Assembly (NCBI GenBank): GCA_016178135.1
Contig: JACOTW010000002.1
Location: forward strand, 13,043 to 77,042
Length of the DNA stretch: 64,000 nt
Source: Candidatus Saccharimonadota bacterium
GTDB taxonomy: Bacteria > Patescibacteriota > Saccharimonadia > Saccharimonadales > JACOTW01
Direction of reading: 5' to 3'
Shown: positions 19,016-31,707 of the stretch, piece after piece
How the letters are laid out: each line of letters begins with the position of its first letter
Position numbering within the stretch: the first letter of the stretch is position 1
Position numbers and translations under genes: made by a program
Notes under the pieces: model-generated
Databases searched by the model: none
Told to the model about the DNA's origin: nothing
The model's input: only the letters and a program-made list of their open reading frames with translations

Positions 19016-19660
19016 ATGGTGAAGATTCACAAATTAGATAAGCAGGATCGCCCTAGAGAAAAATTAATTTCAAACGGTGAAAAAAATTTATCTGATATTG
19101 AGTTACTTCAAATAATCATCGGTAGTGGCGTGCAGGGTGCGGACGTTACTAAAATATCCAGGCAGATAAAAAAGTTATTGGATTTCACTAGTTATAAACC
19201 TACTCTTTCACAATTGTCTGAAATCAAGGGCGTTAGCGACGCCACTGCAACTAAGTTGGTTGCACTTTTTGAGCTTGCAGGCCGCAATAATATTACTGAT
19301 ATTACTGTCAGGACTCCCGAGGATATAGTCGCTCAGGTTCCAGAGCTAAGAACGGCTAAACAAGAACATTTGGTTGTACTCACTCTGGACGGCGCAAATA
19401 GACTTATTGAGAAGCGGATAATTAGTATTGGAACACTTAATTCAAGCTTAGTTCACCCGCGCGAAGTTTTTGCTGACGCGATAACAGACCGTGCGGCAAG
19501 CATTATAGTAATACACAATCATCCAAGCGGAACATTAGAACCCAGCGATGCCGACACTGAAATTACCAAAAGACTGCAACAATCAGGTAAATTACTAGGA
19601 ATAAACCTACTAGATCATATTGTTATAACTAAAAATGATTATACATCGATATTGCAATAA
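19016..19660 (+). CDS. radC: RadC-like JAB/MPN domain protein
   Basis: The C-terminal JAMM motif reads IIVIHNHPSGTLEPSDADTEITKRL, and an N-terminal helix-hairpin-helix-like region (LSDIELLQIIIGSG) is present. Confidence 0.85.
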   Translation: MVKIHKLDKQDRPREKLISNGEKNLSDIELLQIIIGSGVQGADVTKISRQIKKLLDFTSYKPTLSQLSEIKGVSDATATKLVALFELAGRNNITDITVRTPEDIVAQVPELRTAKQEHLVVLTLDGANRLIEKRIISIGTLNSSLVHPREVFADAITDRAASIIVIHNHPSGTLEPSDADTEITKRLQQSGKLLGINLLDHIVITKNDYTSILQ

Positions 19661-19686: not shown

Positions 19687-20433
19687 ATGGACAAAGGGAC
19701 AGGGCCAAAACCAAGAATAAATCTTTTCGGTTATCTGGATGAGACAGGTCTTCTTCATTCCCCAGCAACAGATAAAGTTTTTGGACTCGGCCTGACTATT
19801 TGTCATAATCCCAAAAAACTCCATCGTGATATTATAAACTTTCGTAACAGGCGAAAATACTATAAAGAATTCAAATCGACCGATATCCGCACACAGAACC
19901 TACCTATATACAAAGAGCTTCTTGATATTTTCTTTGATTCCCATAGTGTCAGCTTTTCGGGTCTTCTTTTCGATAAAAAACAGTTAGATCTAAACAAGTA
20001 TTTCAAAGGCGACTACGAGCGGGCATATGGTGTTTATGTAGCAAAACTTATATCGGATGCTTTGGAGGCTGAATCTAGCAAAGGCAGCAATTATATTGTT
20101 GTGCTTGCGGACGATGTTTCAACGAGCAAAGACGATCATTTCGAAAAGGTAGTTAAAGAAAAAGTAAAGATGCGACTTAGGCGTAACGCAGTGTTTGGGG
20201 TGGCAAGACTTGAGTCACATGCCATAACAGAGATTCAGATGACTGATGTGTTGCTTGGTATAGTCGCGTATTCTTTTAAAGTAAAGTTTGGCATGGTAAA
20301 GGGTAAAGGTGCAAAACTAGAGATGGTTAAATATATGCAAAAGAAGTTGGGAGTGTCCAAACTCTCACAAACGCAGAAAATAAAAAAGCGCGGTGGACTG
20401 CGCTTTTTCATCGAGGAATTTCATGCAAAATAA
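19687..20433 (+). CDS. DUF3800 domain protein
   Basis: N-terminal FGYLDETGLL followed by a ...VVLADDVS... layout is typical of DUF3800. The family call is from memory. Confidence 0.55.
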   Translation: MDKGTGPKPRINLFGYLDETGLLHSPATDKVFGLGLTICHNPKKLHRDIINFRNRRKYYKEFKSTDIRTQNLPIYKELLDIFFDSHSVSFSGLLFDKKQLDLNKYFKGDYERAYGVYVAKLISDALEAESSKGSNYIVVLADDVSTSKDDHFEKVVKEKVKMRLRRNAVFGVARLESHAITEIQMTDVLLGIVAYSFKVKFGMVKGKGAKLEMVKYMQKKLGVSKLSQTQKIKKRGGLRFFIEEFHAK

Positions 20434-20698
20434 TAAATACAAAATAAAAATAGATGGCGCTTTGGGTACAATGGTCATCGAAGACCAACCCACGCATTCC
20501 ATCTACAAGTCAAATTTTAACATATGTAAATACTTTCTGTCAATATTTTTTACAACACTTACTAAAGTTGCAAAAGCACTCGATAAAAAAATATAGCAAA
20601 AAAGAACAAAGAGGTTACGTTAAGTAATTAGTAGCAGTAGAAGCCCGTGTGCACACAAAACTATTGCAAAATCTAACAAACTCGTATATTATCGTAGT

Positions 20699-21268
20699 AT
20701 GAGCAAAACAATAAAGCTTGGTGAAGTGGCAGAAATCCAGAGTGGTTATAGCTTTCGTGGCGCTGTTGGCGATGACGGTGCTGGCACTATGGTTGTCCAA
20801 GCACGGGATATAAGTGCCCTTATAATCGGTGTTGATCACTTACCCCGGTTACAACAGGACTTCCCTAAGACAAAGTTGCTTCAAAAAGGTGACTTGCTTT
20901 TGACCTCACGTGGTTCTTTTCGAGCTGGCGTTGCTCGCTTTGACGCTCCTGCCGTGGCTTCATCGTCTTTATTTACGTTGCACCTACGAAACAAAACATA
21001 CCTGCCGGAGTTTGTAGCGCTATTCCTAAATTCTGGCCAAGCTCAGAGTTATATGACGCAGAATGCAAAAGGTGCAACGATTCAAAGCTTGAGCATTAGT
21101 GACCTAGCTGAACTGTCGCTACCGGTCGTTCCGATCGAACGGCAGAAGTTGCTAGTTGGCCTTCAGCAGAATGTCGAGACGCAGACAGCGCTACTGCGGT
21201 CAAAGCTAGATGTCGTGAATGAAATTTATATCGGTGCAATCAGTAAAAGTCTAAAAGGAGTCGCATAA
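20699..21268 (+). CDS. hsdS: type I restriction-modification specificity subunit, half-size (single target recognition domain)
   Basis: 189 aa. IKLGEVAEIQSGYSFRG opens the TRD, and a C-terminal coiled conserved region (IERQKLLVGLQQNVETQTALLRSKL) follows. The stop overlaps the hsdM start. Confidence 0.8.
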   Translation: MSKTIKLGEVAEIQSGYSFRGAVGDDGAGTMVVQARDISALIIGVDHLPRLQQDFPKTKLLQKGDLLLTSRGSFRAGVARFDAPAVASSSLFTLHLRNKTYLPEFVALFLNSGQAQSYMTQNAKGATIQSLSISDLAELSLPVVPIERQKLLVGLQQNVETQTALLRSKLDVVNEIYIGAISKSLKGVA

Positions 21269-22779
21269 TGGTAGCCAAGAAATACAGCCAAACAGAACTT
21301 AACAATATTTTATGGGATGCTGCCGACTCTAGCCGCACCAGCGTGGATGCGGGTATATATAAGGACTACGCACTTACGATGTTGTTCTTTAAGTACCTTA
21401 GTGATAAATCCCAAAAGCAACATGCCGAATACGCCGAGCGCTACGGTGCAGATGAAGACCGCATCGCGTCAAAGATGAAGCAAGATCGCTTCTATCTACC
21501 GCCTGACACCGATTTTGATTACATTTACGCTAAAAAGGAAGAAGACAACATCGGGGAAGAGCTCAATAAGGTCCTGCATCGCATAGAAGAAACCAATAAA
21601 GCCAAGCTAGAAGGCGTCTTCAGTGTAGACTTCAACTCCGAGTCTATTCTGGGCAAACAAGCACAGCGCAACAAGATGCTCCGTCACCTAATCGACGACT
21701 TTTATAAAATTGACCTCAGTGACGCCGACGAAGATATTATCGGTAATTCCTACATGTATCTTATTGAACGATTCGGTGCTGACGCCGGTAAAAAGGCTGG
21801 TGAGTTCTTTACCGTAAAGTCGGTTGCAAAGCTAGTTGCCATGCTTGCACAGCCAAAGCCCGGCGATCGTATAGCTGACCCAGCGATGGGCAGTGGTGGT
21901 CTTCTCTTGTTGGCTGGCGAAGAAGTTGAAAAACAAGGCTCCAACAACTACGCGCTGTATGGTCAGGAGTCAACCGGCAGTACTTTCCAGTTAGCCCGCA
22001 TGAATATGTTCCTTCATGGCAAAGACTCGGCCTATCTGGAATGGGGCGATACACTCAATAACCCTCAACTGGTAGAAAACGACAAACTGATGAAGTTTGA
22101 TGTTTGTGTCGCTAATCCACCATTTTCTCTCAAGAAATGGGGTGCCGAAAATGCCGATAGCGATAAATATAACCGCTTCTGGCGTGGTGTACCGCCAAAG
22201 GATAAGGGTGACTATGCCTTTATTACCCACATGGTTGAAACTGCCAAGCCAAAAAATGGCCGTGTGTCAGTTATTGTGCCGCACGGCGTACTGTTCCGCA
22301 GTGGTGCTGAGGGTAAAATCCGCGAAGCACTACTCAGAGAAAATATTGTAGACGCAGTCATTGGTTTACCGGCTGGCCTATTCCAAACTACCGGTATTCC
22401 TGTGGCAATTCTAATACTCGACCGTTCCCGCGAAGAGGGTGGCAAGAACGCCAACAAGCAAGACGTGTTATTTATCGAAGCGTCGAAAGAATTCAAACCT
22501 GGCAAAGCCCAGAATACGCTGACCCAGGAAAACATCGACAAAATCTATGACACCTACGTTCAGCGTAAAGACGTAGACAAATTTGCCCACGTTGCCAGCT
22601 TAGACGAAATTATTGAAAACGATTTCAACCTTAATATCACGCGGTACGTTGACACTTTCGTAGAAGAGGCAGAAATAGATATTGCGGCTAACCTAGCGGA
22701 ACTAGAAAAGCTTAACCCAGAACTTCAAAAACTTGAGGCCCAGATGAATGATTATCTAAGGCAGCTAGGGATCAATTAA
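21268..22779 (+). CDS. hsdM: type I restriction-modification DNA methyltransferase (N6-adenine)
   Basis: An HsdM N-terminal domain, the AdoMet motif DPAMGSGGLL and the catalytic VANPPFSLKKW are present. Confidence 0.92.
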   Translation: MVAKKYSQTELNNILWDAADSSRTSVDAGIYKDYALTMLFFKYLSDKSQKQHAEYAERYGADEDRIASKMKQDRFYLPPDTDFDYIYAKKEEDNIGEELNKVLHRIEETNKAKLEGVFSVDFNSESILGKQAQRNKMLRHLIDDFYKIDLSDADEDIIGNSYMYLIERFGADAGKKAGEFFTVKSVAKLVAMLAQPKPGDRIADPAMGSGGLLLLAGEEVEKQGSNNYALYGQESTGSTFQLARMNMFLHGKDSAYLEWGDTLNNPQLVENDKLMKFDVCVANPPFSLKKWGAENADSDKYNRFWRGVPPKDKGDYAFITHMVETAKPKNGRVSVIVPHGVLFRSGAEGKIREALLRENIVDAVIGLPAGLFQTTGIPVAILILDRSREEGGKNANKQDVLFIEASKEFKPGKAQNTLTQENIDKIYDTYVQRKDVDKFAHVASLDEIIENDFNLNITRYVDTFVEEAEIDIAANLAELEKLNPELQKLEAQMNDYLRQLGIN

Positions 22780-22780
22780 G

Positions 22781-23839
22781 ATGCCACAGCTAGCAACTCG
22801 ATCTACCTCAAGCGAGACGATGGACGTTGACCCTATTGTTTTAAGGGAAACTACGACTACCAGGTTGATATTTTGCCCTAGTTGGGTTAGCACTTCGGAT
22901 AACCCACTAAGGGGTGGTTTTGTCTTCCAGAGGAAAAGTCGAAGTACCACTTGGGAAAATTTTGAGTCTATTTCACTTGCAAATATGCACATGAACGAAG
23001 AGTACAAGTTGAATCTAGGCGGTGATGAAGTTAGCATGCTGTTAAATTCACTGGACGATATTAACAAACTGCTTATCGAGCACGGCCATTCATATGGTCA
23101 GCGAGTTTTTGAACTTAAAGAGAATAATGCTGGTGGAATCTTCGTACAAATAGGTCAGATAGAAAATCGACAATGGATTGTTGATGAGCTTAAAAAACTG
23201 GAAGCAAACAATTTCGAAAACTTGGGAACTGCTCTAGGCCGTGCGCGTATAGAATTAGCGATTGAAGAGATAGAAAGCAACATGTCTAACGACAGTGAGT
23301 CTTTTTGGCAGGCATTTTTCTCACGCAATACGTGGGTATTACAACAGGTATTTGCTTACCCAGTTTTTTACCTTAACGGAGAAACATATCTAGGTGGTAA
23401 AAATTCAAGCGGCAGAAATGGAGCTGGCGGTACGGCTACAGACTTTCTGTTGAAGCATGGATCAACCGGTAGCTTTGCCGTTATAGAAATTAAAACGCCT
23501 ATGAGTGATCTCATCGGCACCGAGTATAGAGGCACTGATGCAGGGCTTGAAAACCAAATATTTAGTATGCACAAAGAACTGTCGGGTGGAATTGTGCAAA
23601 TGGAGAATCAAATACGTATTGCAGTAGAGGAGTTTGGTGGGCCGCTTACGCGGGATTACCCTGGCTTGAATTACCTTAATCCCTGTGGTGTTTTAATTAT
23701 CGGTAAATATGATGGTCTATCCGATGAGCAAAAGCGCTCCTTCTTCTTATTCAGAAAATCTCTAGGCAAAAATCTTGTTTATACCTATGACGAACTACTT
23801 GAGAAAATCAAGTTACTAAGAGGTGTCTATGAATCATAG
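22781..23839 (+). CDS. Shedu-like DUF4263 PD-(D/E)xK nuclease domain protein embedded in the hsd operon
   Basis: The C-terminal half reads ESFWQAFFSRNTWVLQQVF...ATDFLLKHGSTGSFAVIEIKTP...GVLIIGKYDGLSDEQKRSFFLFRKSLGKNLVYTYDELL, which matches the DUF4263/SduA pattern as I recall it. It starts 2 nt after the hsdM stop and overlaps hsdS by 17 nt. Confidence 0.6.
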   Translation: MPQLATRSTSSETMDVDPIVLRETTTTRLIFCPSWVSTSDNPLRGGFVFQRKSRSTTWENFESISLANMHMNEEYKLNLGGDEVSMLLNSLDDINKLLIEHGHSYGQRVFELKENNAGGIFVQIGQIENRQWIVDELKKLEANNFENLGTALGRARIELAIEEIESNMSNDSESFWQAFFSRNTWVLQQVFAYPVFYLNGETYLGGKNSSGRNGAGGTATDFLLKHGSTGSFAVIEIKTPMSDLIGTEYRGTDAGLENQIFSMHKELSGGIVQMENQIRIAVEEFGGPLTRDYPGLNYLNPCGVLIIGKYDGLSDEQKRSFFLFRKSLGKNLVYTYDELLEKIKLLRGVYES

Positions 23840-25088
23840 TCAAATACCCGATGGTTGGCATGTCAAGAAACTTAAACAGACTGGTGAGGCAATAATCGGT
23901 CTAACGTATTCCCCGAAGGATGTGGTTGACTCTGGTGGAATCGAAGTCTTACGATCGTCTAATGTTCAACACGGTAGGATTGTACTGGATGATCTAGTAA
24001 GGGTTAATGCAAAAATTCCCGAAAAGATTATTCTTCAAGATGGAGATATTCTAGTATGCGCTAGAAACGGTAGCCGTAGACTAATTGGTAAAAATGCTCG
24101 AATTAATAGACACAATATAGGCAAAACATTTGGTGCTTTTATGTGTGTGTATCGATCAGACAATCCGAACTATATGTATTGGGTATTCCAAACTGAGTCT
24201 TTTAGAAAACAGATTGCACGCGACTTAGGCCCAACGATTAATCAAGTAACGACCGGCAATCTTAATTCGTTTAAGTTTGCATTTCCGAGTGAAGACGAAC
24301 AAGCGAGAATTGTCACGGTTTTAGAAGTTTGGGATGAGTATGTTGAAAAATTAGACAAAAAAATTGAACTCAAAAAGAATATTAAAAAAGGTTTAATGCA
24401 GGATTTACTAACTGGCGAGATTCAAATTCCTGGTTTTAATGGAGAGTGGCAAGAAGTCAAATTGGGCGAAAATGGTGAAACGTACGCAGGCCTGTCGGGT
24501 AAAACAAAAGAAGATTTTGGCCAAGGCAAGCCGTATATTACCTACATGAATATATACTCAAATCCAACAGTTGACCAAAACAACTACGAACTTGTTAAAT
24601 TAGACCATGAAGAATCTCAAAATAAAGTCAAATACGGCGACATTCTATTCACGACCTCTTCTGAAACGCCTGAAGAAGTAGGTATTGCTTCTGTTTATCT
24701 AGGAAATGACAGCGAGCTTTATCTAAACAGCTTCTGTTTTGGGTTTAGATTGAAACAACCGGCTAAGCTTTCTCCAAAATTTGCTCGCCATTATTTCAGA
24801 GGTCAGCAGTTTAGGAAAACAATGACACGCATAGCTCAAGGTGCAAGTCGCTATAATCTTTCGAAAAGATACTTCATGGAGACAAAGATCAGGATACCTG
24901 TAGACATTGCGGAGCAAGAGCGCATTGCCGAACTATTAGACAACATAAGTTTTGATATAAAGCTACTGCACGATAAAAGACAACTTGTCCTTAATCAGAA
25001 AAAGTATTTGGTTAATAATCTTATAAGGGGTGATCTACGAACACCGGAAGACTTACGGATATCTATAAAGGAGATGCAGCATGCTTGA
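23823..25088 (+). CDS. hsdS: type I restriction-modification specificity subunit, full-length (two target recognition domains)
   Basis: 421 aa with two TRDs separated by a central conserved helix (EDEQARIVTVLEVWDEYVEKLDKKIELKK). The C-terminal repeat reads IAEQERIAELLDNISFDIKLL. Confidence 0.88.
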   Translation: MSMNHSQIPDGWHVKKLKQTGEAIIGLTYSPKDVVDSGGIEVLRSSNVQHGRIVLDDLVRVNAKIPEKIILQDGDILVCARNGSRRLIGKNARINRHNIGKTFGAFMCVYRSDNPNYMYWVFQTESFRKQIARDLGPTINQVTTGNLNSFKFAFPSEDEQARIVTVLEVWDEYVEKLDKKIELKKNIKKGLMQDLLTGEIQIPGFNGEWQEVKLGENGETYAGLSGKTKEDFGQGKPYITYMNIYSNPTVDQNNYELVKLDHEESQNKVKYGDILFTTSSETPEEVGIASVYLGNDSELYLNSFCFGFRLKQPAKLSPKFARHYFRGQQFRKTMTRIAQGASRYNLSKRYFMETKIRIPVDIAEQERIAELLDNISFDIKLLHDKRQLVLNQKKYLVNNLIRGDLRTPEDLRISIKEMQHA

Positions 25089-28000
25089 GAATGTTAACTT
25101 TGATGAGGCCAGACAGTCGCAACTTACATTTGTTGAGATGCTTATAAATATGGGTTATGCGTATTTGCCGACAGCGGAGCTTATGCGTCAGCGTAGTGGT
25201 GACACTTCGTACTATCTACTAAAAGAAGTTGCTGCAGAATCTTTGATGCGAATCAATGATTACGAGCACCACGGCCAGACGTACAAGTTTACGGAGAAGG
25301 ACGTTGCCGAGACCATTGATGAGCTAGAAAGCCTCCAGCACGAAGGGTTGATAGATACATCCAAAGCCGTTTACAACACCATAATGCCGCTCAAAGGTGG
25401 TAAAACAATCCGTGTTTTCCATGATGGTAAATATGAGTCTAAAAGTTTCCGTTTTATCGACTTTGAACACCCAGAGAATAACCAATTTCATGTAGCTGTG
25501 GAAGTTGAAATCAGCGCCAAGAGCGGTACCCGCCGTCCTGATATCGTTTGTTACATTAACGGTATTCCGTTTGTCGTGATTGAAAATAAGAAATCGAGTA
25601 CCAATGTATCCGATGCCATAAACCAAATGATTCGCAACCAGGGTCCCGACTATAGCCCTAAGTTTTTTATCTATCCACAACTATTGATAGCTACTAACGG
25701 TAAAGACTTACGCTACGGAACTACCGGAACTCCAGCTGAGTTCTACGTTAACTGGCGGGAAAAAGACCACAGCGCCGAAGAAGTTGACGAAAAAGTACGT
25801 AATCTTATCTCCACCAAAATTGATGATGAACAATACACTCAGTTACTGCAAGATCTAAATGGAAATACTCATGGTCACACTCAGCGCCTTGACCGCAAGC
25901 CAACCGAGCAAGACCGTTCCATAATTGCTCTACTCGATAAAAAACGACTGCTAGATATTACTAAGAATTACATCCTATACGATGGCGTTCAAAAAAAAGT
26001 TATGCGCTACCAGCAATTTTTTGCAATCAACCGTGCATTGAAACGTATTGAAGAGAAAGAACCAACCAGCCACGGTGAACGTCGTAAGGGCGGTATCATC
26101 TGGCATACGCAGGGCTCCGGCAAGTCATTGACGATGGTAATGTTCGTTCGCGCTCTAATTGAAGACCCCCGCATAATAAACCCACGCATATTAATTGTTA
26201 CCGACCGTAAAGACTTGGATAGGCAAATTCTTGGGACTTTCCAAAACGCCGGACTCAAGAAAAAAGTGAAGCAAGCCCGCAGTGGTGAGCACTTGCTTGA
26301 ACTCATAAAGTCTAAAGACACAAGCGTTGTCACGACATTAATCCATAAGTTCCAGTCGGCGTCCCGCCGTCGGGCAGACTTTATAGACAACGACCAAAAC
26401 ATTTTTGTACTTATTGACGAGGCGCACCGCTCGCAGCAGGGTGATGCCAATATAGAGATGAATCGTACTATCCCGAACGCCTGCTACATTGCCTTCACTG
26501 GCACCCCACTTCTTAAACGTGAGCAATCACAAAACAAGTTCGGTAGCTTCATTGATAAATACACAATTGATGATGCTCTCGAAGACAATATAGTTCTGCC
26601 ACTCATTTACGAAGGTCGCTACGTAGACCTGCATCAGGATAAAAAAGAGATTGATCGCCAAGCAGACCGTGTCATGGAAGATATGCCTGAATATATTCGA
26701 AAGAAGTTACAAGAATCGGTACAAAAAAGTATCATACAAGATAGTCCAAAACGTATTAATGAAATTGCATATGATATAGAAAAACATTATATTAGTCGCT
26801 TCCAAGGGTATGGACTGAAGGCGCAGATAGTGGCACCGTCCAAATTCTCAGCCATGCTGTTCCAAAAATACTTTAATGATAGTGGCAAGATAAATACAGC
26901 CCTTGTTATATCTGACGAAAATGGCATCATTGACGACAAAGACGAGCACAAAAAAGAAGTCGAAGGCTACCTAAAAGATATTAAGGATAAATACCAAAGC
27001 CTACTTAGCTACGAAAAGGAAGTCATCGATAGCTTCAAGTACAACGACGAAGGTGTAGAAATCCTGATTGTTGTCGACAAACTCCTCACGGGCTTCGATG
27101 CACCGCGTAATACGGTACTTTACCTCGCCAAAGAGCTGAGAGACCATAACTTGCTCCAGGCAATCGCTCGTGTTAACCGCCTGTATGACAACCCAGCTTT
27201 ACCAAAAACAGCGGGTTTCATTATCGACTATTCTGAAAATGCCCAGAACATCCATACTGCTATGCAGCTGTTTGGTAATTACGACGAGACTGACGTTAAA
27301 GGTGCGCTGATTGATGTCAACGAAAAGATACAAGACCTTGAAACCAGCTACGGTGCCTTACACGACATATTCAACGGTATTCAAAGCGACGACGAAGCCT
27401 ACCTACAGCACCTTAACGATGATCCAACTCGCAAAGAATTCTATGCCGCACTTAATAAGTTCGTGCAGGAATTTAGCGAGTGTATGGTATTGCAAGACTT
27501 TGCTCATGAGTTTGAAGACCTTGATATTTATCGTCTAGAACTAAAGAAGTTCATGGAACTTCGAAAAACTGCCACTTTGATGCACGAAGAGCGGGTTGAT
27601 TTTTCGAAGTACAAGAATGCGCTAGTGAAAATAATGGACGACAACATAAAAGCAGACGAAGCTGAGTTATTGACCGAAGAAATTAACATTACTGACAAGG
27701 AATTGTTTGATAAGGCAATTGAAGAAATTGGCTCCGACAAATCCAAGGCCGAAGCTATTGCCGCACAAACCAAACGAACAATTACCGAGAAGTTTAACAC
27801 TGACCCCGAATTTTACGGCAAGTTTTCGAAGAAGATTAGCGAAATCCTTGACGCTATGCGAGCAAAGAAGCTTGCCGACATTGAAGCTCTAAAACAACTT
27901 AAGCTCATAACAGATGAGGTATTAAATAAAAAGGACGATACGTTGCCTTCGGTAGTCGCTGAAACGCCCGGGGTTGATATTCTATATCGCAACCTCCGCG

Positions 28001-28254
28001 CTCATCTTGATTTGGAAGAAATTACTTATATAAAAACCGTACTTGATATATACCAAGTACTAAGCAAAAATGCTCGAGTAGATTGGTGGAAGAATCACGA
28101 AATGAAACGAATCATGCGGAGCAGTATTGACGATTACCTATACGATGAAGTGAAAGTGAAGCTTGGCGTCAACCTTACTGTCGATCAAATTGATTCAATT
28201 GTAGATGACGTCATGAAACTGGCAGAAAATAACTACGAGATATTTGTTAAATGA
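25081..28254 (+). CDS. hsdR: type I restriction enzyme R subunit (helicase-nuclease)
   Basis: The nuclease motif reads RRPDIVCYINGIPFVVIENK. SF2 motifs HTQGSGKS and IDEAHRSQ are present. 1057 aa. Confidence 0.92.
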   Translation: MLENVNFDEARQSQLTFVEMLINMGYAYLPTAELMRQRSGDTSYYLLKEVAAESLMRINDYEHHGQTYKFTEKDVAETIDELESLQHEGLIDTSKAVYNTIMPLKGGKTIRVFHDGKYESKSFRFIDFEHPENNQFHVAVEVEISAKSGTRRPDIVCYINGIPFVVIENKKSSTNVSDAINQMIRNQGPDYSPKFFIYPQLLIATNGKDLRYGTTGTPAEFYVNWREKDHSAEEVDEKVRNLISTKIDDEQYTQLLQDLNGNTHGHTQRLDRKPTEQDRSIIALLDKKRLLDITKNYILYDGVQKKVMRYQQFFAINRALKRIEEKEPTSHGERRKGGIIWHTQGSGKSLTMVMFVRALIEDPRIINPRILIVTDRKDLDRQILGTFQNAGLKKKVKQARSGEHLLELIKSKDTSVVTTLIHKFQSASRRRADFIDNDQNIFVLIDEAHRSQQGDANIEMNRTIPNACYIAFTGTPLLKREQSQNKFGSFIDKYTIDDALEDNIVLPLIYEGRYVDLHQDKKEIDRQADRVMEDMPEYIRKKLQESVQKSIIQDSPKRINEIAYDIEKHYISRFQGYGLKAQIVAPSKFSAMLFQKYFNDSGKINTALVISDENGIIDDKDEHKKEVEGYLKDIKDKYQSLLSYEKEVIDSFKYNDEGVEILIVVDKLLTGFDAPRNTVLYLAKELRDHNLLQAIARVNRLYDNPALPKTAGFIIDYSENAQNIHTAMQLFGNYDETDVKGALIDVNEKIQDLETSYGALHDIFNGIQSDDEAYLQHLNDDPTRKEFYAALNKFVQEFSECMVLQDFAHEFEDLDIYRLELKKFMELRKTATLMHEERVDFSKYKNALVKIMDDNIKADEAELLTEEINITDKELFDKAIEEIGSDKSKAEAIAAQTKRTITEKFNTDPEFYGKFSKKISEILDAMRAKKLADIEALKQLKLITDEVLNKKDDTLPSVVAETPGVDILYRNLRAHLDLEEITYIKTVLDIYQVLSKNARVDWWKNHEMKRIMRSSIDDYLYDEVKVKLGVNLTVDQIDSIVDDVMKLAENNYEIFVK

Positions 28255-28955
28255 CCACCCGAACCTTTGAATATGGCACACATAGTTACATTTATGGGTT
28301 AGTTCGTCAGGACAGAAAAACTTTGAGCCTCACGGTTGAACCTTGTCTAGATATTATCCTGAAAGTTCCGGAAGATGTCGACAATGAGCGAATTGAAAAG
28401 TTTCTGCGTAAGAAATGGATGTGGCTCAATAAACAGCTGACCTTTTTCGAGAAATATCGCAAGAAGTATTACCAGAAAGAATATGTCTCGGGCGAGAGTT
28501 TTTATTACCTAGGCCGGCAATACAAATTGATCGTAGTTAATGGCGATAAAAACTCGGTTGCGCTGAGTAAGGGCAAGCTTACAATTACGACGGGTAAAAA
28601 TACTTCTGACGGTAAATATAACCGGACATTGCTCGAGCGATGGTATAAGCAACGTAGACACGCTGTATTTACTGAACGTTACGCTGAAGTCCTGACACAT
28701 TTTGATTACAAATTCACTCCGGAGTTAACCGTACGCGTAATGGCACGACGCTGGGGTAGCTATATCAAGGGCGAGCGCATCATATTGAATCCGCTACTAA
28801 TTCAGGCTCCCAAAGAAGCCATAGACTACGTAATTACCCACGAACTTTGCCACATGAAGTATAAAAACCACGACCCGCGGTTCTTTCAGCTTATGGATAC
28901 TAAATATACAGGTTGGCGCAAGACTAAGGAAAAGCTGGAGCTACTAGTCGCATGA
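28251..28955 (+). CDS. YgjP-like (DUF45/M48-related) zinc metallohydrolase
   Basis: Carries HELCHM(x)...H near the C-terminus. ATGA overlap with hsdR. This family is commonly linked to type I R-M loci. Confidence 0.75.
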   Translation: MTTRTFEYGTHSYIYGLVRQDRKTLSLTVEPCLDIILKVPEDVDNERIEKFLRKKWMWLNKQLTFFEKYRKKYYQKEYVSGESFYYLGRQYKLIVVNGDKNSVALSKGKLTITTGKNTSDGKYNRTLLERWYKQRRHAVFTERYAEVLTHFDYKFTPELTVRVMARRWGSYIKGERIILNPLLIQAPKEAIDYVITHELCHMKYKNHDPRFFQLMDTKYTGWRKTKEKLELLVA

Positions 28956-28982
28956 TTGAATGTAAAAACAGGGAGAAAACTA

Positions 28983-29216
28983 ATGAGTGAATGTATTTGT
29001 TCTGTCTGCGGGCACGACGAATCAAAATGTAGTCCCGACGAAACGTATCGTCGGGCAAAAGAACTGATCGGGTTTAAGAAAAAGGCATCTGCCGCACTAT
29101 TACAGCGCGACCTTAAAATAAGCTACGCTAAATCCGCAGATATATTGGATGAACTAGAGGCGGAAGGCCTGGTTGGTCCGGCCGATGACGCACAGCCTAG
29201 ACAAGTTTTACTATAG
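28983..29216 (+). CDS. stand-alone FtsK-gamma-like winged-helix protein with an N-terminal Cys cluster
   Basis: ASAALLQRDLKISYAKSADILDELEAEGLVGPADDAQPRQVLL parallels the gamma domain of the adjacent FtsK ([43 protein letters not shown]). The N-terminus is CICSVCGHDESKC. A GGGAG sequence lies upstream of the ATG at 28983. Confidence 0.65.
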   Translation: MSECICSVCGHDESKCSPDETYRRAKELIGFKKKASAALLQRDLKISYAKSADILDELEAEGLVGPADDAQPRQVLL

Positions 29217-29381: not shown

Positions 29382-29410
29382 TTGACAAGTGTTGTAAAAT
29401 TGGCTATAAT
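29382..29410 (+). promoter_or_regulatory. Consensus sigma-70-type promoter upstream of ftsK
   Basis: TTGACA at 29382-29387, a 17-nt spacer, then TATAAT at 29405-29410. Confidence 0.55.
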
Positions 29411-29490
29411 AGGGCTTACGTACTTTTTCGTGGCAATAGACTGGACCTGCCGCACCCGTTATCTACGAAAAAATGTGTAAATCCTATATA
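29409..29490 (+). repeat. Short hairpin element with GGCTTACG-type termini in the ftsK 5' leader
   Basis: AGGGCTTACGTACTTTTTCGT pairs with ACGAAAAAATGTGTAAATCCT, and most mismatches are G-U compatible on the + strand. The termini resemble the type B ends. Confidence 0.45.
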
Positions 29491-29502
29491 ATAAGATCAG
29501 CA

Positions 29503-31707
29503 ATGGCTAAAAAGAAAAAACAATCACGTAAAAAATCTCAACCCCAGGCAAGCGAACGTTCTGCCTTTTGGCCGTTAGCTGGTTCAATACTCATGTTCGT
29601 ATTTGCCATGTTTTTGTTATTGGGCGCGTTCGGTACGGGTGGTAAATTGCCAAAAGAACTTTACCACGGCGCTTATTGGACTTTAGGCTGGGCGGCCCTA
29701 TTTACTCCGGTTGCTTTGATATTTTTCGGTGTCCATAAATTTACCAGTGAAGATCGACAAATTCCACTCGACAAATTTATTAGTATGTTGGGTTTTTTGG
29801 CCTTAACTTCGGCATGGTTGCATGTTGGGTTTGTTCAAAAAGATAATTTTAATGGTGAGTTTGTGAATGGGCACGGTGGTGAGGTGGGGGGAGTTATTGG
29901 CAATGCCGCGCTTAATGCTCTTGATAAAATGCCGGCCAGTATTTTATTTTTTGTCTTGGCTTTACTGGCTTTTTTTCTGACCTTTAGTATTTCGCCCAAA
30001 ATAATTCTTAAATTGAATGGTGTGTTCAAGCGATCAGATGAAGATACTGATCTGGCAACTTTAAAAACTAATGTCAGAGAACACGAATTTGAGCTTAATG
30101 AAGGAGTACCAGTCGAGCATCATACGGATCGTGCAGATCGTGATTCCACTCGTCTCACTACTTTAAAAAATACTGCCCAAAAACTGGCGCCAGCCCAGAA
30201 CCATGAAGCCCTAACAACGGCCAGTGATCCAGATTGGCAATTCCCTAGTATTAATTTATTGAATCAGAAACAAGACAAGGCTAATGCCGGGGATGTTGAA
30301 GGCAATGCCGAAGCCATTAAAGAAACCTTCGATAATTTTAACATTGTAGTTGATATGGAGGGGGCAAACATTGGTCCACGAGTAACGCAGTACACTCTGA
30401 AGCCACCAACAGGCGTAAAATTAACAAAAATAACTGCACTTGAAAATAATCTGTCGCTTGATTTAGCCGCGCATTCTATTCGTATAGAAGCGCCCATCCC
30501 TGGTAAACGGCTCGTTGGAATAGAGGTTCCGAACATTAAGCCGGCTATGGTGCGGATTAGTAGCTTGTTATTATCACGAGAATGGCAAGAAATGAGCAGT
30601 CCACTTGGATTCGTGATAGGTAAAGATATTGCTGGCGTTCCGATAGTTGCCGATCTTGCCAAGATGCCACATTTATTGGTAGCTGGTCAGACTGGCTCTG
30701 GTAAGTCGGTTATGATCAACACTATTTTGACCAGTTTGCTGTATAGAAACAGCCCTAGCGATCTTAAGCTCATTTTAGTGGACCCAAAACAAGTAGAACT
30801 TAAACCCTACGATGACATACCACATCTTTTAACTCCTGTAATTACGGAGCCTGAAAAATGTATTAGTGCCCTTAAGTGGACTGTTGCCGAAATGGAGCGT
30901 CGCTATCGTGCTCTTAGCGAAGTACATCGTCGCAATATCGTGGAATATAATAATCTTAAAAAAGAAGAAGGGATGCCCTATATTGTTTTGGTGATTGATG
31001 AGTTGGCCGATCTAATGATGATGGCAGCCAGAGATGTTGAGGCACTGATTGTACGCATTGCCCAAAAAGCTCGTGCCGTAGGCATTCATTTGGTGTTGGC
31101 TACTCAACGTCCATCAGTCGATGTTATTACTGGCTTGATTAAGGCCAACGTACCGGCTCGGATTGCTTTTACTACCGTTAGTCAGGTTGATTCACGGACT
31201 ATTATTGATGGTATTGGAGCTGAAAAACTACTAGGACAGGGCGATATGCTTCTGACAACCGCCGATATGCCTAAGCCAAAACGCGTTCAAGGAGCATTTA
31301 TTGACGATCATGAAACTCTCAAAGTTACTGATTTTATTAGGATGCAGCGTCCAGCACAATATGATGACGAAGTTGTTAGTCAGCCAGTTCAACTAAATGG
31401 ACGAGGTGGGGTTGTTGCTGACTACGGAGCAAATGATGCGAATGATGATATGTGGCAGGATGCGGTACGAGTAGTTATTGAAGGCCACAAGGCAAGTACT
31501 AGTTTGCTGCAGCGTCGTTTGCGGGTTGGTTATGCCAGAGCTGCCCGACTTATTGAAACCATGGAAGAGCAGGGCATTGTTGGGCCAGCTGATGGCGCTC
31601 GATCAAGAGAAGTGTTGGTGAGCTCCATGGATGAAGTGTTTGGCGGCACATCAGCAGTCGAACCTGACATGTATGACGAGAATTTTCCAGACGACCAAGT
31701 CAAATAA
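29503..31707 (+). CDS. ftsK: DNA translocase FtsK/SpoIIIE
   Basis: N-terminal TM segments, Walker A GQTGSGKS, Walker B VLVIDELADL and a C-terminal gamma domain are present. The ATG at 29503 (MAKKKKQSRKK) is preferred. Confidence 0.92.
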   Translation: MAKKKKQSRKKSQPQASERSAFWPLAGSILMFVFAMFLLLGAFGTGGKLPKELYHGAYWTLGWAALFTPVALIFFGVHKFTSEDRQIPLDKFISMLGFLALTSAWLHVGFVQKDNFNGEFVNGHGGEVGGVIGNAALNALDKMPASILFFVLALLAFFLTFSISPKIILKLNGVFKRSDEDTDLATLKTNVREHEFELNEGVPVEHHTDRADRDSTRLTTLKNTAQKLAPAQNHEALTTASDPDWQFPSINLLNQKQDKANAGDVEGNAEAIKETFDNFNIVVDMEGANIGPRVTQYTLKPPTGVKLTKITALENNLSLDLAAHSIRIEAPIPGKRLVGIEVPNIKPAMVRISSLLLSREWQEMSSPLGFVIGKDIAGVPIVADLAKMPHLLVAGQTGSGKSVMINTILTSLLYRNSPSDLKLILVDPKQVELKPYDDIPHLLTPVITEPEKCISALKWTVAEMERRYRALSEVHRRNIVEYNNLKKEEGMPYIVLVIDELADLMMMAARDVEALIVRIAQKARAVGIHLVLATQRPSVDVITGLIKANVPARIAFTTVSQVDSRTIIDGIGAEKLLGQGDMLLTTADMPKPKRVQGAFIDDHETLKVTDFIRMQRPAQYDDEVVSQPVQLNGRGGVVADYGANDANDDMWQDAVRVVIEGHKASTSLLQRRLRVGYARAARLIETMEEQGIVGPADGARSREVLVSSMDEVFGGTSAVEPDMYDENFPDDQVK

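What the first reader, a model, noticed from the sequence alone, without database searches (positions are those of the whole stretch)
22781..23839. Shedu-like DUF4263 nuclease gene inserted between hsdM and hsdS of a type I R-M operon
The 352-aa ORF starts 2 nt after the hsdM stop and overlaps the downstream hsdS by 17 nt. It is therefore co-transcribed, and probably translationally coupled, with the R-M genes.

- Its C-terminal half (ESFWQAFFSRNTWVLQQVF...TDFLLKHGSTGSFAVIEIKTP...VLIIGKYDGLS...VYTYDELL) fits the DUF4263 PD-(D/E)xK nuclease domain of the Shedu defence protein SduA.
- Its N-terminal ~170 aa match nothing I recognise.
- The position is analogous to the PrrC anticodon nuclease embedded in the EcoprrI hsd locus, where the R-M complex keeps a latent nuclease silent until a phage anti-restriction factor releases it.

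A Shedu-type effector wired into a type I R-M complex would be a composite defence architecture worth testing.
Basis: partly seen in the sequence, partly recalled or inferred. Interest (0 to 1): 0.7.

Follow-up and report, generated by a model that had tools for sequence, protein, structure and literature searches.

The report
Shedu nuclease inside type I R-M
A complete, intact Shedu anti-phage nuclease gene sits between the methylase and specificity genes of a type I restriction operon in a Saccharibacteria genome, but it is one interchangeable allele of a cargo slot, and Shedu inside restriction loci has already been published, so the finding is real but ordinary.

Summary
ORF 22781-23839 (+, 352 aa) is a real gene. 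It starts one base after the hsdM stop and overlaps hsdS by 11 nt (ATG 23829, the likelier start) or 17 nt (GTG 23823).

It is a full Type 1A Shedu of the Bacillus cereus kind:
- Both Pfam domains hit: SduA_N and SduA_C/DUF4263.
- PDB 8ti8 matches at E 1.5e-44.
- Every B. cereus residue shown by mutation to matter, and every named active-site motif residue, is present.

The PrrC-like reading is not supported. Sister operons (HsdM 91-97% identical) keep the frame half-hsdS, hsdM, X, hsdS, hsdR, ygjP, but X differs: a TIR pair (PDC-M50) or unknown 439-aa or 322-aa proteins. DNA homology stops at the hsdM stop (22779). It resumes 6 nt after the sduA stop in one sister and at the hsdR start in the others. 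Relatives also occur outside R-M, and B. cereus Shedu works alone.

This Shedu clade is nevertheless strongly enriched next to type I hsd genes: 15 of 20 loci against 1 of 41 for distant relatives, across at least four HsdM families.

Gu et al. already reported 602 Shedu genes within R-M loci, so this is a new member of a known kind.

The parts
20633..20698 (+). Conserved leader of the R-M module. DNA homology to sister operons begins here. It contains a promoter-like site at 20664-20692 (TTGCAA-17-TATTAT).
   Evidence: blastn to L092, L094 and L095 starts at 20633-20635. The promoter-like match is, where the number of matches in the region did not exceed chance.
20699..21268 (+). Half-size hsdS (189 aa, a single target-recognition domain). 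Its stop overlaps the hsdM start by 1 nt.
   Evidence: Pfam Methylase_S E 2.8e-12. PADLOC Specificity_I. A 187-221 aa half-hsdS precedes hsdM in the family-A operons recovered through SduA and in all sister operons.
21268..22779 (+). hsdM, the type I N6-adenine methyltransferase (503 aa). Its last codons (L-G-I-N-stop) carry an AGGGA Shine-Dalgarno-like element about 10 nt before the cargo ATG.
   Evidence: Pfam N6_Mtase E 4e-98 and HsdM_N E 2.7e-23. An identical protein is named type I R-M subunit M of Candidatus Saccharibacteria at NCBI.
22781..23839 (+). sduA, a Type 1A Shedu nuclease (352 aa). N-terminal SduA_N domain at residues 8-102 (22802-23086), helical linker, PD-(D/E)xK nuclease domain at residues 171-340 (23291-23800).
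   Evidence: Pfam hits, PADLOC, PDB 8ti8 E 1.5e-44. AF2 model pLDDT 77.9. Foldseek top hits are B. cereus Shedu 8ti9/8ti8, E 5.6e-12, target TM 0.84. Residues R28, E173, K207, R212, D221, E236, K238, Q273 and Y293 are present.
22780..23844 (+). The cargo block, with no DNA homology to the sister operon L094. It equals sduA plus 1 nt upstream and 5 nt downstream. Against the other sisters the non-homologous block is 22780-25080 (sduA plus hsdS).
   Evidence: blastn of the window against L092, L094, L095 and L096.
23829..25088 (+). hsdS, the full-length specificity subunit with two target-recognition domains (419 aa from ATG 23829, 421 aa from GTG 23823). Its start lies inside the last codons of sduA.
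   Evidence: Pfam Methylase_S, two stretches, E 2.5e-22. Start analysis.
25081..28254 (+). hsdR, the restriction/translocase subunit (1057 aa). It overlaps hsdS by 8 nt.
   Evidence: Pfam HSDR_N, SWI2_SNF2, ResIII and T1R_D3-like.
28251..28955 (+). YgjP-like zinc metallopeptidase (234 aa). It overlaps hsdR by 4 nt and is the last gene of the conserved module.
   Evidence: Pfam YgjP-like E 2.5e-51. Homology to sister operons ends at 28934-28955. It is present after hsdR in the loci whose hsdR was recovered complete, except L039.

Best explanation
The gene encodes an autonomous Type 1A Shedu nuclease of the B. cereus kind. It occupies an interchangeable cargo slot between hsdM and hsdS of a mobile type I R-M module in a Candidatus Saccharibacteria genome.

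Shown here:
- The module (about 20633-28955) has a fixed frame: half-hsdS, hsdM, slot, hsdS, hsdR, ygjP.
- The slot is expressed from the operon. The conserved last codons of hsdM provide a Shine-Dalgarno-like element, and the cargo ATG follows the hsdM stop within 0-9 nt.
- The cargo's 3' end contains the hsdS start codon.
- Sister operons carry other defence-type cargo in the same slot.

Inferred from the B. cereus homologue:
- SduA forms a tetramer in which motif II Asp (here D221) is held away from the active site.
- The Whirly-like N-terminal domain (conserved R28) senses an infection-linked nucleic-acid feature, possibly single-stranded or end structures of injected phage DNA.
- This permits octamer formation and double-strand cleavage of phage DNA, without killing the host.

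Co-location gives co-expression and co-transfer with R-M and a second, mechanistically different layer of DNA-level defence. It does not require physical control of Shedu by the Hsd proteins.
For: Identity:
- Pfam SduA_N and SduA_C are both well above their cut-offs. PADLOC SduA hits at E 1.7e-70.
- PDB 8ti8 (B. cereus Shedu) aligns over both domains at E 1.5e-44. Foldseek gives 8ti9_C at E 5.6e-12 with target TM 0.84.
- The predicted N-terminal beta-strands followed by a long helix fit the beta-beta-beta-beta-alpha sPC4/Whirly description.
- The named or mutated B. cereus residues map as follows: R29 to R28, E204 to E173, K238 to K207, K241 to R212, D249 to D221, E264 to E236, K266 to K238, Q295 to Q273, Y315 to Y293. 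The first eight positions are conserved in all 36 aligned relatives (seven invariant; E236 is Asp in 3 of 36). Y293 varies: Tyr in 19, Phe in 12.

Cargo slot:
- Operons with HsdM 91-97% identical to the window's keep the same frame. The slot holds a ThsB-like TIR plus a 139-aa partner (PADLOC PDC-M50B/A) in L092, L093 and L095, a 439-aa unknown in L094, and a 322-aa unknown in L096.
- DNA homology (76-84%) ends at 22779 in three sisters and within 5 nt of it in L096. It resumes at 25081, or at 23845 in L094.
- Other Shedu-bearing operons carry extra cargo in the slot: RhuM, Bro-N, Mrr_cat, NYN.

Autonomy:
- Five of 21 non-redundant close relatives are not next to type I hsd genes.
- B. cereus Shedu alone protects B. 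subtilis, non-abortively. It is inactive until its N-terminal and linker domains are removed.

Operon:
- Gene spacings are -1, +1, -11 (or -17), -8 and -4 nt.
Against: - The clade's association with type I R-M is much stronger than the family average: 15 of 20 here against 602 of 5,499 (about 11%, all R-M types) in Gu et al. It spans at least four HsdM families only 23-40% identical to each other. That could reflect a specific functional dependence rather than mere co-location.
- No experiment on this protein exists.
- The signal sensed by Type 1A N-terminal domains is unknown even for B. cereus Shedu.
- Detection of hsd genes around distant relatives used profiles built from the loci in hand, so very divergent R-M genes, and type II/III systems, could have been missed.
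Confidence: 0.78

Rival explanations
1. Functional synergy without physical control. The clade is selected to sit in type I R-M operons because its sensor responds to what restriction produces, or to what escapes it. Type I cleavage of unmodified phage DNA creates free ends and, after resection, single strands. A Whirly-like N-terminal domain could bind these, so Shedu would finish off restricted DNA. That role may be especially useful in reduced genomes if RecBCD/AddAB are absent. Alternatively, Shedu covers phages that lack the R-M target sites.
For: - Enrichment is strong: 15 of 20 against 1 of 41, Fisher p = 3e-9.
- The same SduA clade (50-70% identical) is found in R-M operons whose HsdM are only 23-40% identical, implying repeated capture.
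- Loeff et al. note the overlap between Shedu and RecBCD in targeting DNA ends, with RecBCD acting on the products of restriction.
Against: - The slot accepts unrelated cargo (TIR pair, RhuM, Bro-N, unknowns), so enrichment may simply reflect a recombination hot spot shared by cassettes circulating among these small genomes.
- About a quarter of the clade is R-M-free.
- Most R-M-linked loci belong to one HsdM family, so the number of independent events is small, about four.
- Whether the host lacks RecBCD/AddAB cannot be judged from 64 kb.
Confidence: 0.2
2. PrrC-like guard. SduA is held latent by binding the Hsd complex and is released when a phage anti-restriction protein (Ocr- or Stp-like) disables the R-M enzyme.
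For: - The gene is embedded in an hsd operon, with tight coupling that would favour co-assembly.
- A precedent exists in PrrC/EcoprrI.
Against: - The cargo is interchangeable in near-identical operons.
- Clade members occur without R-M, whereas prrC is always R-M-linked.
- The homologous B. cereus enzyme carries its own auto-inhibition (sequestered motif II loop, inhibitory N-terminal and linker domains) and defends alone.
- R-M-embedded and R-M-free members are equally similar to the window protein (57-62%), so no separate embedded subfamily is apparent.
- There is no ABC-ATPase relay domain like that of PrrC.
Confidence: 0.06
3. Inert passenger. The gene is a decaying or non-functional hitchhiker kept only because it supplies the hsdS start region.
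For: The hsdS start codon lies inside the sduA 3' end, so clean loss of sduA would need a precise deletion.
Against: - The ORF is an intact, full-length 352 aa.
- Eight of the nine mapped catalytic and regulatory positions are conserved in all 36 relatives (E236 is Asp in three); only Y293 varies.
- The AF2 model is confident in both domains.
- Relatives in other loci are also full length.
Confidence: 0.03

Closest known systems
Bacillus cereus B4264 Shedu (SduA), Type 1A; PDB 8ti8/8ti9 (Gu et al., bioRxiv 10.1101/2023.08.10.552793; Mol Cell 2025)
   Same: - Same three-part architecture: SduA_N sPC4/Whirly-like domain, helical linker, DUF4263 PD-(D/E)xK nuclease.
- The sequence match spans both domains (E 1.5e-44).
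- Motifs I-IV, the motif II loop lysine positions, the octamer-interface Tyr and the N-terminal-domain Arg are all present.
   Different: - Only about 30% identical (29-32% in the Foldseek alignments), and 30 residues shorter.
- K241 is Arg here.
- Host is a Saccharibacteria (CPR) bacterium rather than a Firmicute.
- It is expressed from inside a type I R-M operon. The B. cereus gene was tested as a single-gene system in B. subtilis.
Shedu genes within restriction-modification loci (Gu et al.: 602 of 5,499 Shedu genes, types I-IV; 87 in BREX)
   Same: The same phenomenon: a Shedu gene encoded inside an R-M system, read by those authors as possible complementation of R-M.
   Different: That survey gives counts and example figures only. 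Added here:
- The exact cassette boundaries.
- The sister-operon alleles of the slot.
- The clade-specific enrichment, about 75% against about 11%.
- The junction design: Shine-Dalgarno-like element in the hsdM 3' end, downstream start codon in the conserved Tyr-Glu codons.
Escherichia coli SduA (PDB 8ps4; Loeff et al., DNA end sensing)
   Same: DUF4263 nuclease core, and an N-terminal domain that gates activity.
   Different: - A different N-terminal domain.
- Foldseek alignment is poor (14% identity, rmsd 18.7).
- The end-clamp and nicking mechanism cannot simply be transferred.
PrrC anticodon nuclease in the EcoprrI (type Ic) hsd locus
   Same: A latent nuclease gene embedded in a type I hsd operon.
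   Different: - PrrC is an ABC-ATPase plus a tRNA anticodon nuclease.
- It is always R-M-linked, is silenced by physical association with EcoprrI, and is triggered by the T4 Stp peptide.
- SduA here is a DNA nuclease with its own sensor domain, has R-M-free relatives, and sits in a slot that holds other cargo in sister operons.
Defence genes embedded in type I R-M, BREX, DISARM and Hma ('guilt by embedding', Payne et al. bioRxiv 10.1101/2024.01.29.577857); TgvAB in the Vibrio cholerae VPI-2 type I R-M
   Same: - The general architecture: an independent defence gene nested between genes of a multi-gene system.
- The sister-operon cargo PDC-M50 and the neighbouring DUF3800 (PDC-M04A) are candidates from that very study.
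   Different: Shedu is not named in that paper's main text or in its held supplements. The present locus adds a Saccharibacteria example with defined allelic cargo exchange.

Membership tests
Shedu (SduA) defence nuclease | DUF4263 / SduA_C domain above the curated threshold | tested here: met
   PF14082 at 68.5 bits against a 27-bit cut-off, residues 171-340. PADLOC SduA at E 1.7e-70.
Shedu (SduA) defence nuclease | PD-(D/E)xK motifs I-IV (B. cereus E204, D249, E264/K266, Q295) | tested here: met
   E173, D221, E236/K238 and Q273 align to these residues in 8ti8. They are invariant in 36 relatives, except that E236 is Asp in 3 of 36.
Shedu (SduA) defence nuclease | Fold of the nuclease domain matches solved Shedu structures | tested here: met
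   AF2 model (pLDDT 77.9) against the PDB: 8ti9_C at E 5.6e-12, target TM 0.84, rmsd 2.8. All eight hits with E <= 0.001 are Shedu chains.
Shedu Type 1A (B. cereus-like, sPC4/Whirly N-terminal domain) | N-terminal SduA_N domain with the conserved Arg (B. cereus R29) | tested here: met
   PF21407 at 59.7 bits against a 27-bit cut-off, residues 8-102. It aligns to residues 12-112 of the 8ti8 chain. R28 is invariant in 36 sequences. The model shows consecutive beta-strands followed by a long helix.
Shedu Type 1A | Homotetramer that activates by octamer formation, and non-abortive anti-phage activity | not testable with these tools
   Only single-chain prediction is available. The octamer-interface Tyr (Y315) has a counterpart, Y293, which is Tyr or Phe in 31 of 36 relatives.
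Type I restriction-modification operon | hsdM, hsdS and hsdR all present, on the same strand and contiguous | tested here: met
   N6_Mtase plus HsdM_N; Methylase_S (two stretches); HSDR_N, SWI2_SNF2, ResIII and T1R_D3-like. Junctions are -1 to +1, -11, -8 and -4 nt.
Embedded defence cargo (sense of Payne et al.) | Gene nested between core genes of a multi-gene defence system, and the slot content varies between related systems | tested here: met
   Sister operons with HsdM 91-97% identical hold PDC-M50 or unknown genes in the same slot. DNA homology breaks at the hsdM stop (within 5 nt in L096) and resumes just past the sduA stop (L094) or at the hsdR start.
PrrC-like R-M-guarded latent nuclease | Obligate genetic linkage to an R-M locus | tested here: not met
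   Five of 21 non-redundant close relatives, and 40 of 41 more distant ones, have no type I hsd gene within 3 kb. prrC is 'always linked'.
PrrC-like R-M-guarded latent nuclease | ABC-ATPase regulatory N-domain plus anticodon nuclease C-domain | tested here: not met
   Only the SduA_N and SduA_C domains are found.
PrrC-like R-M-guarded latent nuclease | Physical association with Hsd proteins and activation by an anti-restriction factor | not testable with these tools
   This needs pull-downs and phage or inhibitor assays. No complex prediction tool was available.

The most novel reading that the evidence does not exclude
This particular Shedu clade (at least 46% identical to the window protein) has become a dedicated partner of type I R-M enzymes. 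Its Whirly-like sensor would read DNA ends or single strands generated by HsdR cleavage and translocation, or the stalled or inhibited state of the enzyme. The conserved translational coupling (hsdM, then sduA, then hsdS) would set its dosage relative to the R-M complex. Shedu would then act as the degradative arm of restriction in reduced genomes that may lack RecBCD/AddAB.
Probability: 0.12. Interest if true: 0.6.

Novelty: new member of a known kind. Interest (0 to 1): 0.25.

Why it matters
As it stands, the locus is a clean, well-bounded example of two published ideas: Shedu genes nested in R-M loci, and guilt by embedding. It is seen here in a Candidatus Saccharibacteria (CPR) genome.

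Its practical value is threefold:
- It gives a defined allelic series. The same R-M frame carries Shedu, a TIR pair, or unknown 439-aa and 322-aa proteins. That series could be used to test whether embedded cargo acts independently of, or synergistically with, type I restriction.
- It flags two unannotated proteins as defence candidates.
- It shows how the slot is built for expression: a Shine-Dalgarno-like element in the hsdM 3' end, and the start codon of the next gene inside the cargo's last codons.

If the clade-specific enrichment reflected real mechanistic coupling, it would identify a signal for Type 1A Shedu activation, which is still unknown.

Tried and rejected
- A genome-contig scan with the single protein found no relative. 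It was repeated with an alignment, which returned 24 loci.
- I first read PDB 8ti8 as the E. coli SduA. The Foldseek descriptions showed it is B. cereus Shedu, and that E. coli SduA (8ps4) is only a weak match. The mechanism was re-anchored on Gu et al.
- The idea that SduA forms a recurrent pair with a ~286-aa Mrr-like downstream gene was rejected. The L005 Mrr_cat protein and the L006 protein are unrelated. L006 and L031 are simply close relatives of each other, 91% identical in that protein.
- The promoter and terminator scan was uninformative, with counts equal to shuffled expectation. Co-transcription is inferred from gene spacing only.
- No compositional anomaly marks the island.
- The Payne et al. 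main text and held supplements do not mention Shedu. The prior report of Shedu in R-M loci is Gu et al..
- PADLOC and Pfam gave nothing for the 439-aa (L094) and 322-aa (L096) cargo, nor for the 895-aa and 379-aa neighbours of the stand-alone L001 sduA.
- The FtsK-gamma ORF after ygjP is not a duplicated ftsK fragment. It is 41% identical to the FtsK gamma domain.
Full report
**1. Observation**

The window holds a 352-codon ORF at 22781-23839 on the + strand, ATG to TAG.

The upstream ORF, 21268-22779, is a type I methyltransferase: Pfam N6_Mtase E 4e-98 and HsdM_N E 2.7e-23. Its TAA stop ends at 22779, and a single base separates it from the ATG.

The downstream ORF is a two-domain HsdS, with Pfam Methylase_S in two stretches. 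An in-frame ATG at 23829 has a GAGG 5 nt upstream. In most homologous loci the ATG in the same codons is where the downstream gene begins. An 11-nt overlap is therefore more likely.

The rest of the operon is:
- hsdR, 25081-28254, overlapping hsdS by 8 nt.
- A YgjP-like metallopeptidase, 28251-28955, overlapping hsdR by 4 nt.
- Upstream of hsdM, a half-size hsdS, 20699-21268, overlapping hsdM by 1 nt.

These spacings support one transcription unit. A consensus scan for promoters and terminators did not exceed chance and adds nothing.

**2. What the protein is**

Both Shedu Pfam domains hit well above their curated thresholds:
- SduA_N (PF21407), residues 8-102, 59.7 bits.
- SduA_C/DUF4263 (PF14082), residues 171-340, 68.5 bits.

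Other evidence agrees:
- PADLOC's best SduA model gives E 1.7e-70.
- Among solved structures, the protein aligns over both domains with Bacillus cereus Shedu, PDB 8ti8, at E 1.5e-44.
- An AlphaFold2 model built on 36 relatives (pLDDT 77.9) finds only Shedu chains at E <= 0.001 in the PDB. The best is the B. cereus nuclease octamer 8ti9_C (E 5.6e-12, target TM 0.84).
- E. coli SduA (8ps4), which has a different N-terminal domain, aligns poorly.

This is the sPC4/Whirly-like sensor domain plus helical linker that defines Type 1A Shedu, the largest class in Gu et al..

The nine residues that Gu et al. name or mutate in B. cereus Shedu all have counterparts:

| B. cereus residue | Role | Window residue |
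|---|---|---|
| R29 | N-terminal domain surface | R28 |
| E204 | motif I | E173 |
| K238 | motif II loop | K207 |
| K241 | motif II loop | R212 |
| D249 | motif II | D221 |
| E264 | motif III | E236 |
| K266 | motif III | K238 |
| Q295 | motif IV | Q273 |
| Y315 | octamer interface | Y293 |

The first eight positions are conserved across 36 relatives: seven are invariant and E236 is Asp in three. Y293 varies, with Tyr in 19 and Phe in 12. The gene looks fully functional.

**3. Context of relatives**

I collected 91 loci that carry relatives, through exact-protein look-ups, a species-representative genome collection and metagenome contigs. I annotated hsdM, hsdS, hsdR and ygjP with iterated profiles.

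After collapsing near-identical copies, the counts were:

| Group | Loci with a type I hsd gene within 3 kb, same strand |
|---|---|
| Close clade (46-62% identical to the window protein) | 16 of 21; 15 of 20 with at least 1.5 kb of flank on one side |
| More distant relatives (mostly actinobacterial or soil) | 1 of 41 |

Fisher's exact test gives p = 3e-9.

The usual layout is hsdM, then 0-2 extra genes, then sduA, then hsdS. The extra genes are RhuM, Bro-N, Mrr_cat or NYN proteins.

The hosting R-M operons fall into at least four HsdM families that are only 23-40% identical to one another. The SduA proteins in them remain 50-70% identical. For example, L003 and L007 have SduA 70% identical but HsdM only 39%. 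The association has therefore arisen more than once.

Five close relatives (L001, L006, L013, L031, L033) are not next to type I hsd genes. L006 and L031 are related to each other.

**4. The slot is interchangeable**

The window's HsdM has many relatives at 91-97% identity, whereas its SduA has none above 62% apart from identical copies.

Four such sister operons keep exactly the frame half-hsdS, hsdM, X, hsdS, hsdR, ygjP, but X differs:
- L092/L093 and L095: a ThsB-like TIR protein plus a 139-aa partner (PADLOC candidates PDC-M50B and PDC-M50A).
- L094: a 439-aa protein with no Pfam or PADLOC hit.
- L096: a 322-aa protein with no Pfam or PADLOC hit.

At the DNA level, homology between the window and these operons (76-84%) behaves as follows:
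- It starts about 65 nt before the half-hsdS in L092, L094 and L095, and at 21251, just before the hsdM start, in L096.
- It ends at 22779, the last base of the hsdM stop, in three sisters, and at 22784 in L096.
- It resumes at 25081, the hsdR start.
- With L094 it also resumes at 23845-24420, so the only non-homologous block there is 22780-23844. That block is sduA and nothing else.

Two features make the slot an expression site for any cargo:
- The conserved hsdM C-terminus (L-G-I-K/N-stop) supplies an AGGA/GGGA element about 10 nt upstream of the cargo ATG. The ATG follows the stop within 0-9 nt in all operons.
- In this Shedu clade the conserved C-terminal Tyr-Glu codons (TAT GAA) contain the ATG of the next gene, whether that is hsdS (three R-M families), an Mrr_cat gene (L005), or an unknown 286-aa gene in R-M-free loci.

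**5. Mechanism**

Shown: the identity, the intact catalytic and regulatory residues, the operon embedding, and the cargo character.

Inferred from the B. cereus enzyme:
- A tetramer whose motif II Asp is sequestered.
- Activation to an octamer that makes double-strand cuts.
- Non-abortive protection by a single gene.
- A sensor proposed, but not shown, to bind single-stranded or end structures of injected DNA.

The best-supported reading is an autonomous second-layer DNA nuclease that is co-expressed and co-transferred with a type I R-M system.

A PrrC-like model, in which the Hsd complex keeps the nuclease silent, is unlikely for four reasons:
- The cargo is interchangeable.
- Clade members occur without R-M.
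- The homologue carries its own auto-inhibition.
- prrC, unlike this gene, is always R-M-linked and is silenced by physical association with EcoprrI.

A looser synergy remains possible and would explain the clade-specific enrichment. In that reading Shedu acts on the ends or single strands that type I cleavage creates, or covers phages that escape restriction. Nothing here tests it.

**6. Comparison with the literature and novelty**

Gu et al. surveyed 5,499 Shedu genes with genomic context. They found 602 within R-M systems of types I-IV and 87 within BREX, and suggested that Shedu complements these systems.

Payne et al. showed that type I R-M, BREX, DISARM and Hma systems commonly hold embedded defence genes, and used this to nominate candidates. 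Those candidates include PDC-M50 and PDC-M04, both of which appear in or near these loci.

The composite architecture is therefore already described. This is a new member: a Saccharibacteria Type 1A Shedu, at most 62% identical to anything else found.

What this analysis adds is the exact cassette boundaries, the allelic series in sister operons, the junction design, and the unusually high R-M association of this clade.

**7. Verdict**

Interest is low to moderate.

Noticed in passing
L094:8522-9841 and L096:8514-9482: In sister operons (HsdM 96% and 91% identical to the window's), the hsdM-hsdS slot holds a 439-aa and a 322-aa protein. Neither has a Pfam or PADLOC hit. By guilt by embedding they are candidate new defence genes.
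   Followed up: partly
window 20699-21268: A half-size hsdS (189 aa, one target-recognition domain) overlaps the hsdM start by 1 nt. A 187-221 aa half-hsdS precedes hsdM in the family-A operons recovered and in all four sister operons, so these systems carry two specificity genes. Its role (alternative specificity, or a homodimeric S) is unexplored.
   Followed up: partly
window 19016-19660 and 19687-20433: A RadC-like JAB protein and a DUF3800 protein (PADLOC candidate PDC-M04A, E 3.4e-26) lie immediately upstream of the R-M module. A DUF3800/PDC-M04A homologue is itself embedded between hsdS and hsdR in L007. RadC also precedes the R-M operon in L003/L008.
   Followed up: partly
window 28956-29216: An 86-aa ORF (TTG start) directly after the ygjP stop encodes a stand-alone FtsK-gamma winged-helix domain. 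It is 41% identical to the gamma domain of the full FtsK at 29473-31707. It lies outside the block homologous to sister operons.
   Followed up: partly
window 29382-29410: A perfect sigma-70 consensus (TTGACA-17-TATAAT) lies about 60 nt upstream of ftsK.
   Followed up: no
window 28251-28955; also L003, L005, L007, L009-L011, L014, L040, L060, L092, L094-L096: A YgjP-like zinc metallopeptidase follows hsdR closely (overlapping it, or within about 20 nt) in several type I R-M families (HsdM down to about 38% identity). This suggests it is an integral but uncharacterised part of these operons.
   Followed up: partly
window 23826-23831 and the equivalent positions in L003-L042: The conserved C-terminal Tyr-Glu codons of this Shedu clade (TAT GAA) contain the ATG used by the downstream gene, whatever that gene is: hsdS in three R-M families, Mrr_cat in L005, an unknown 286-aa gene in L006/L031.
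   Followed up: yes
L011:5526-6986 and L005:5699-10655: Other R-M operons that carry this Shedu are multiply loaded. L011 (an archaeal MAG) has a PARIS AriA-like ABC ATPase between hsdS and hsdR. L005 holds RhuM, SduA, Mrr_cat and NYN genes within one hsd operon.
   Followed up: partly
L095:1033-5703 and L096:1-6225: In two sister genomes the same R-M module sits next to phage or mobile-element genes: a ParB-N6/N4 methyltransferase and a serine recombinase in both, and a terminase large subunit in L095. In the window it lies between housekeeping genes (RNase J, a glycosyltransferase, ftsK). The whole module therefore appears to be mobile.
   Followed up: no
L001:3100-6941: The stand-alone sduA of a Parcubacteria MAG is preceded by co-directional 895-aa and 379-aa proteins with no Pfam or PADLOC hit. 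They may be another defence system.
   Followed up: partly
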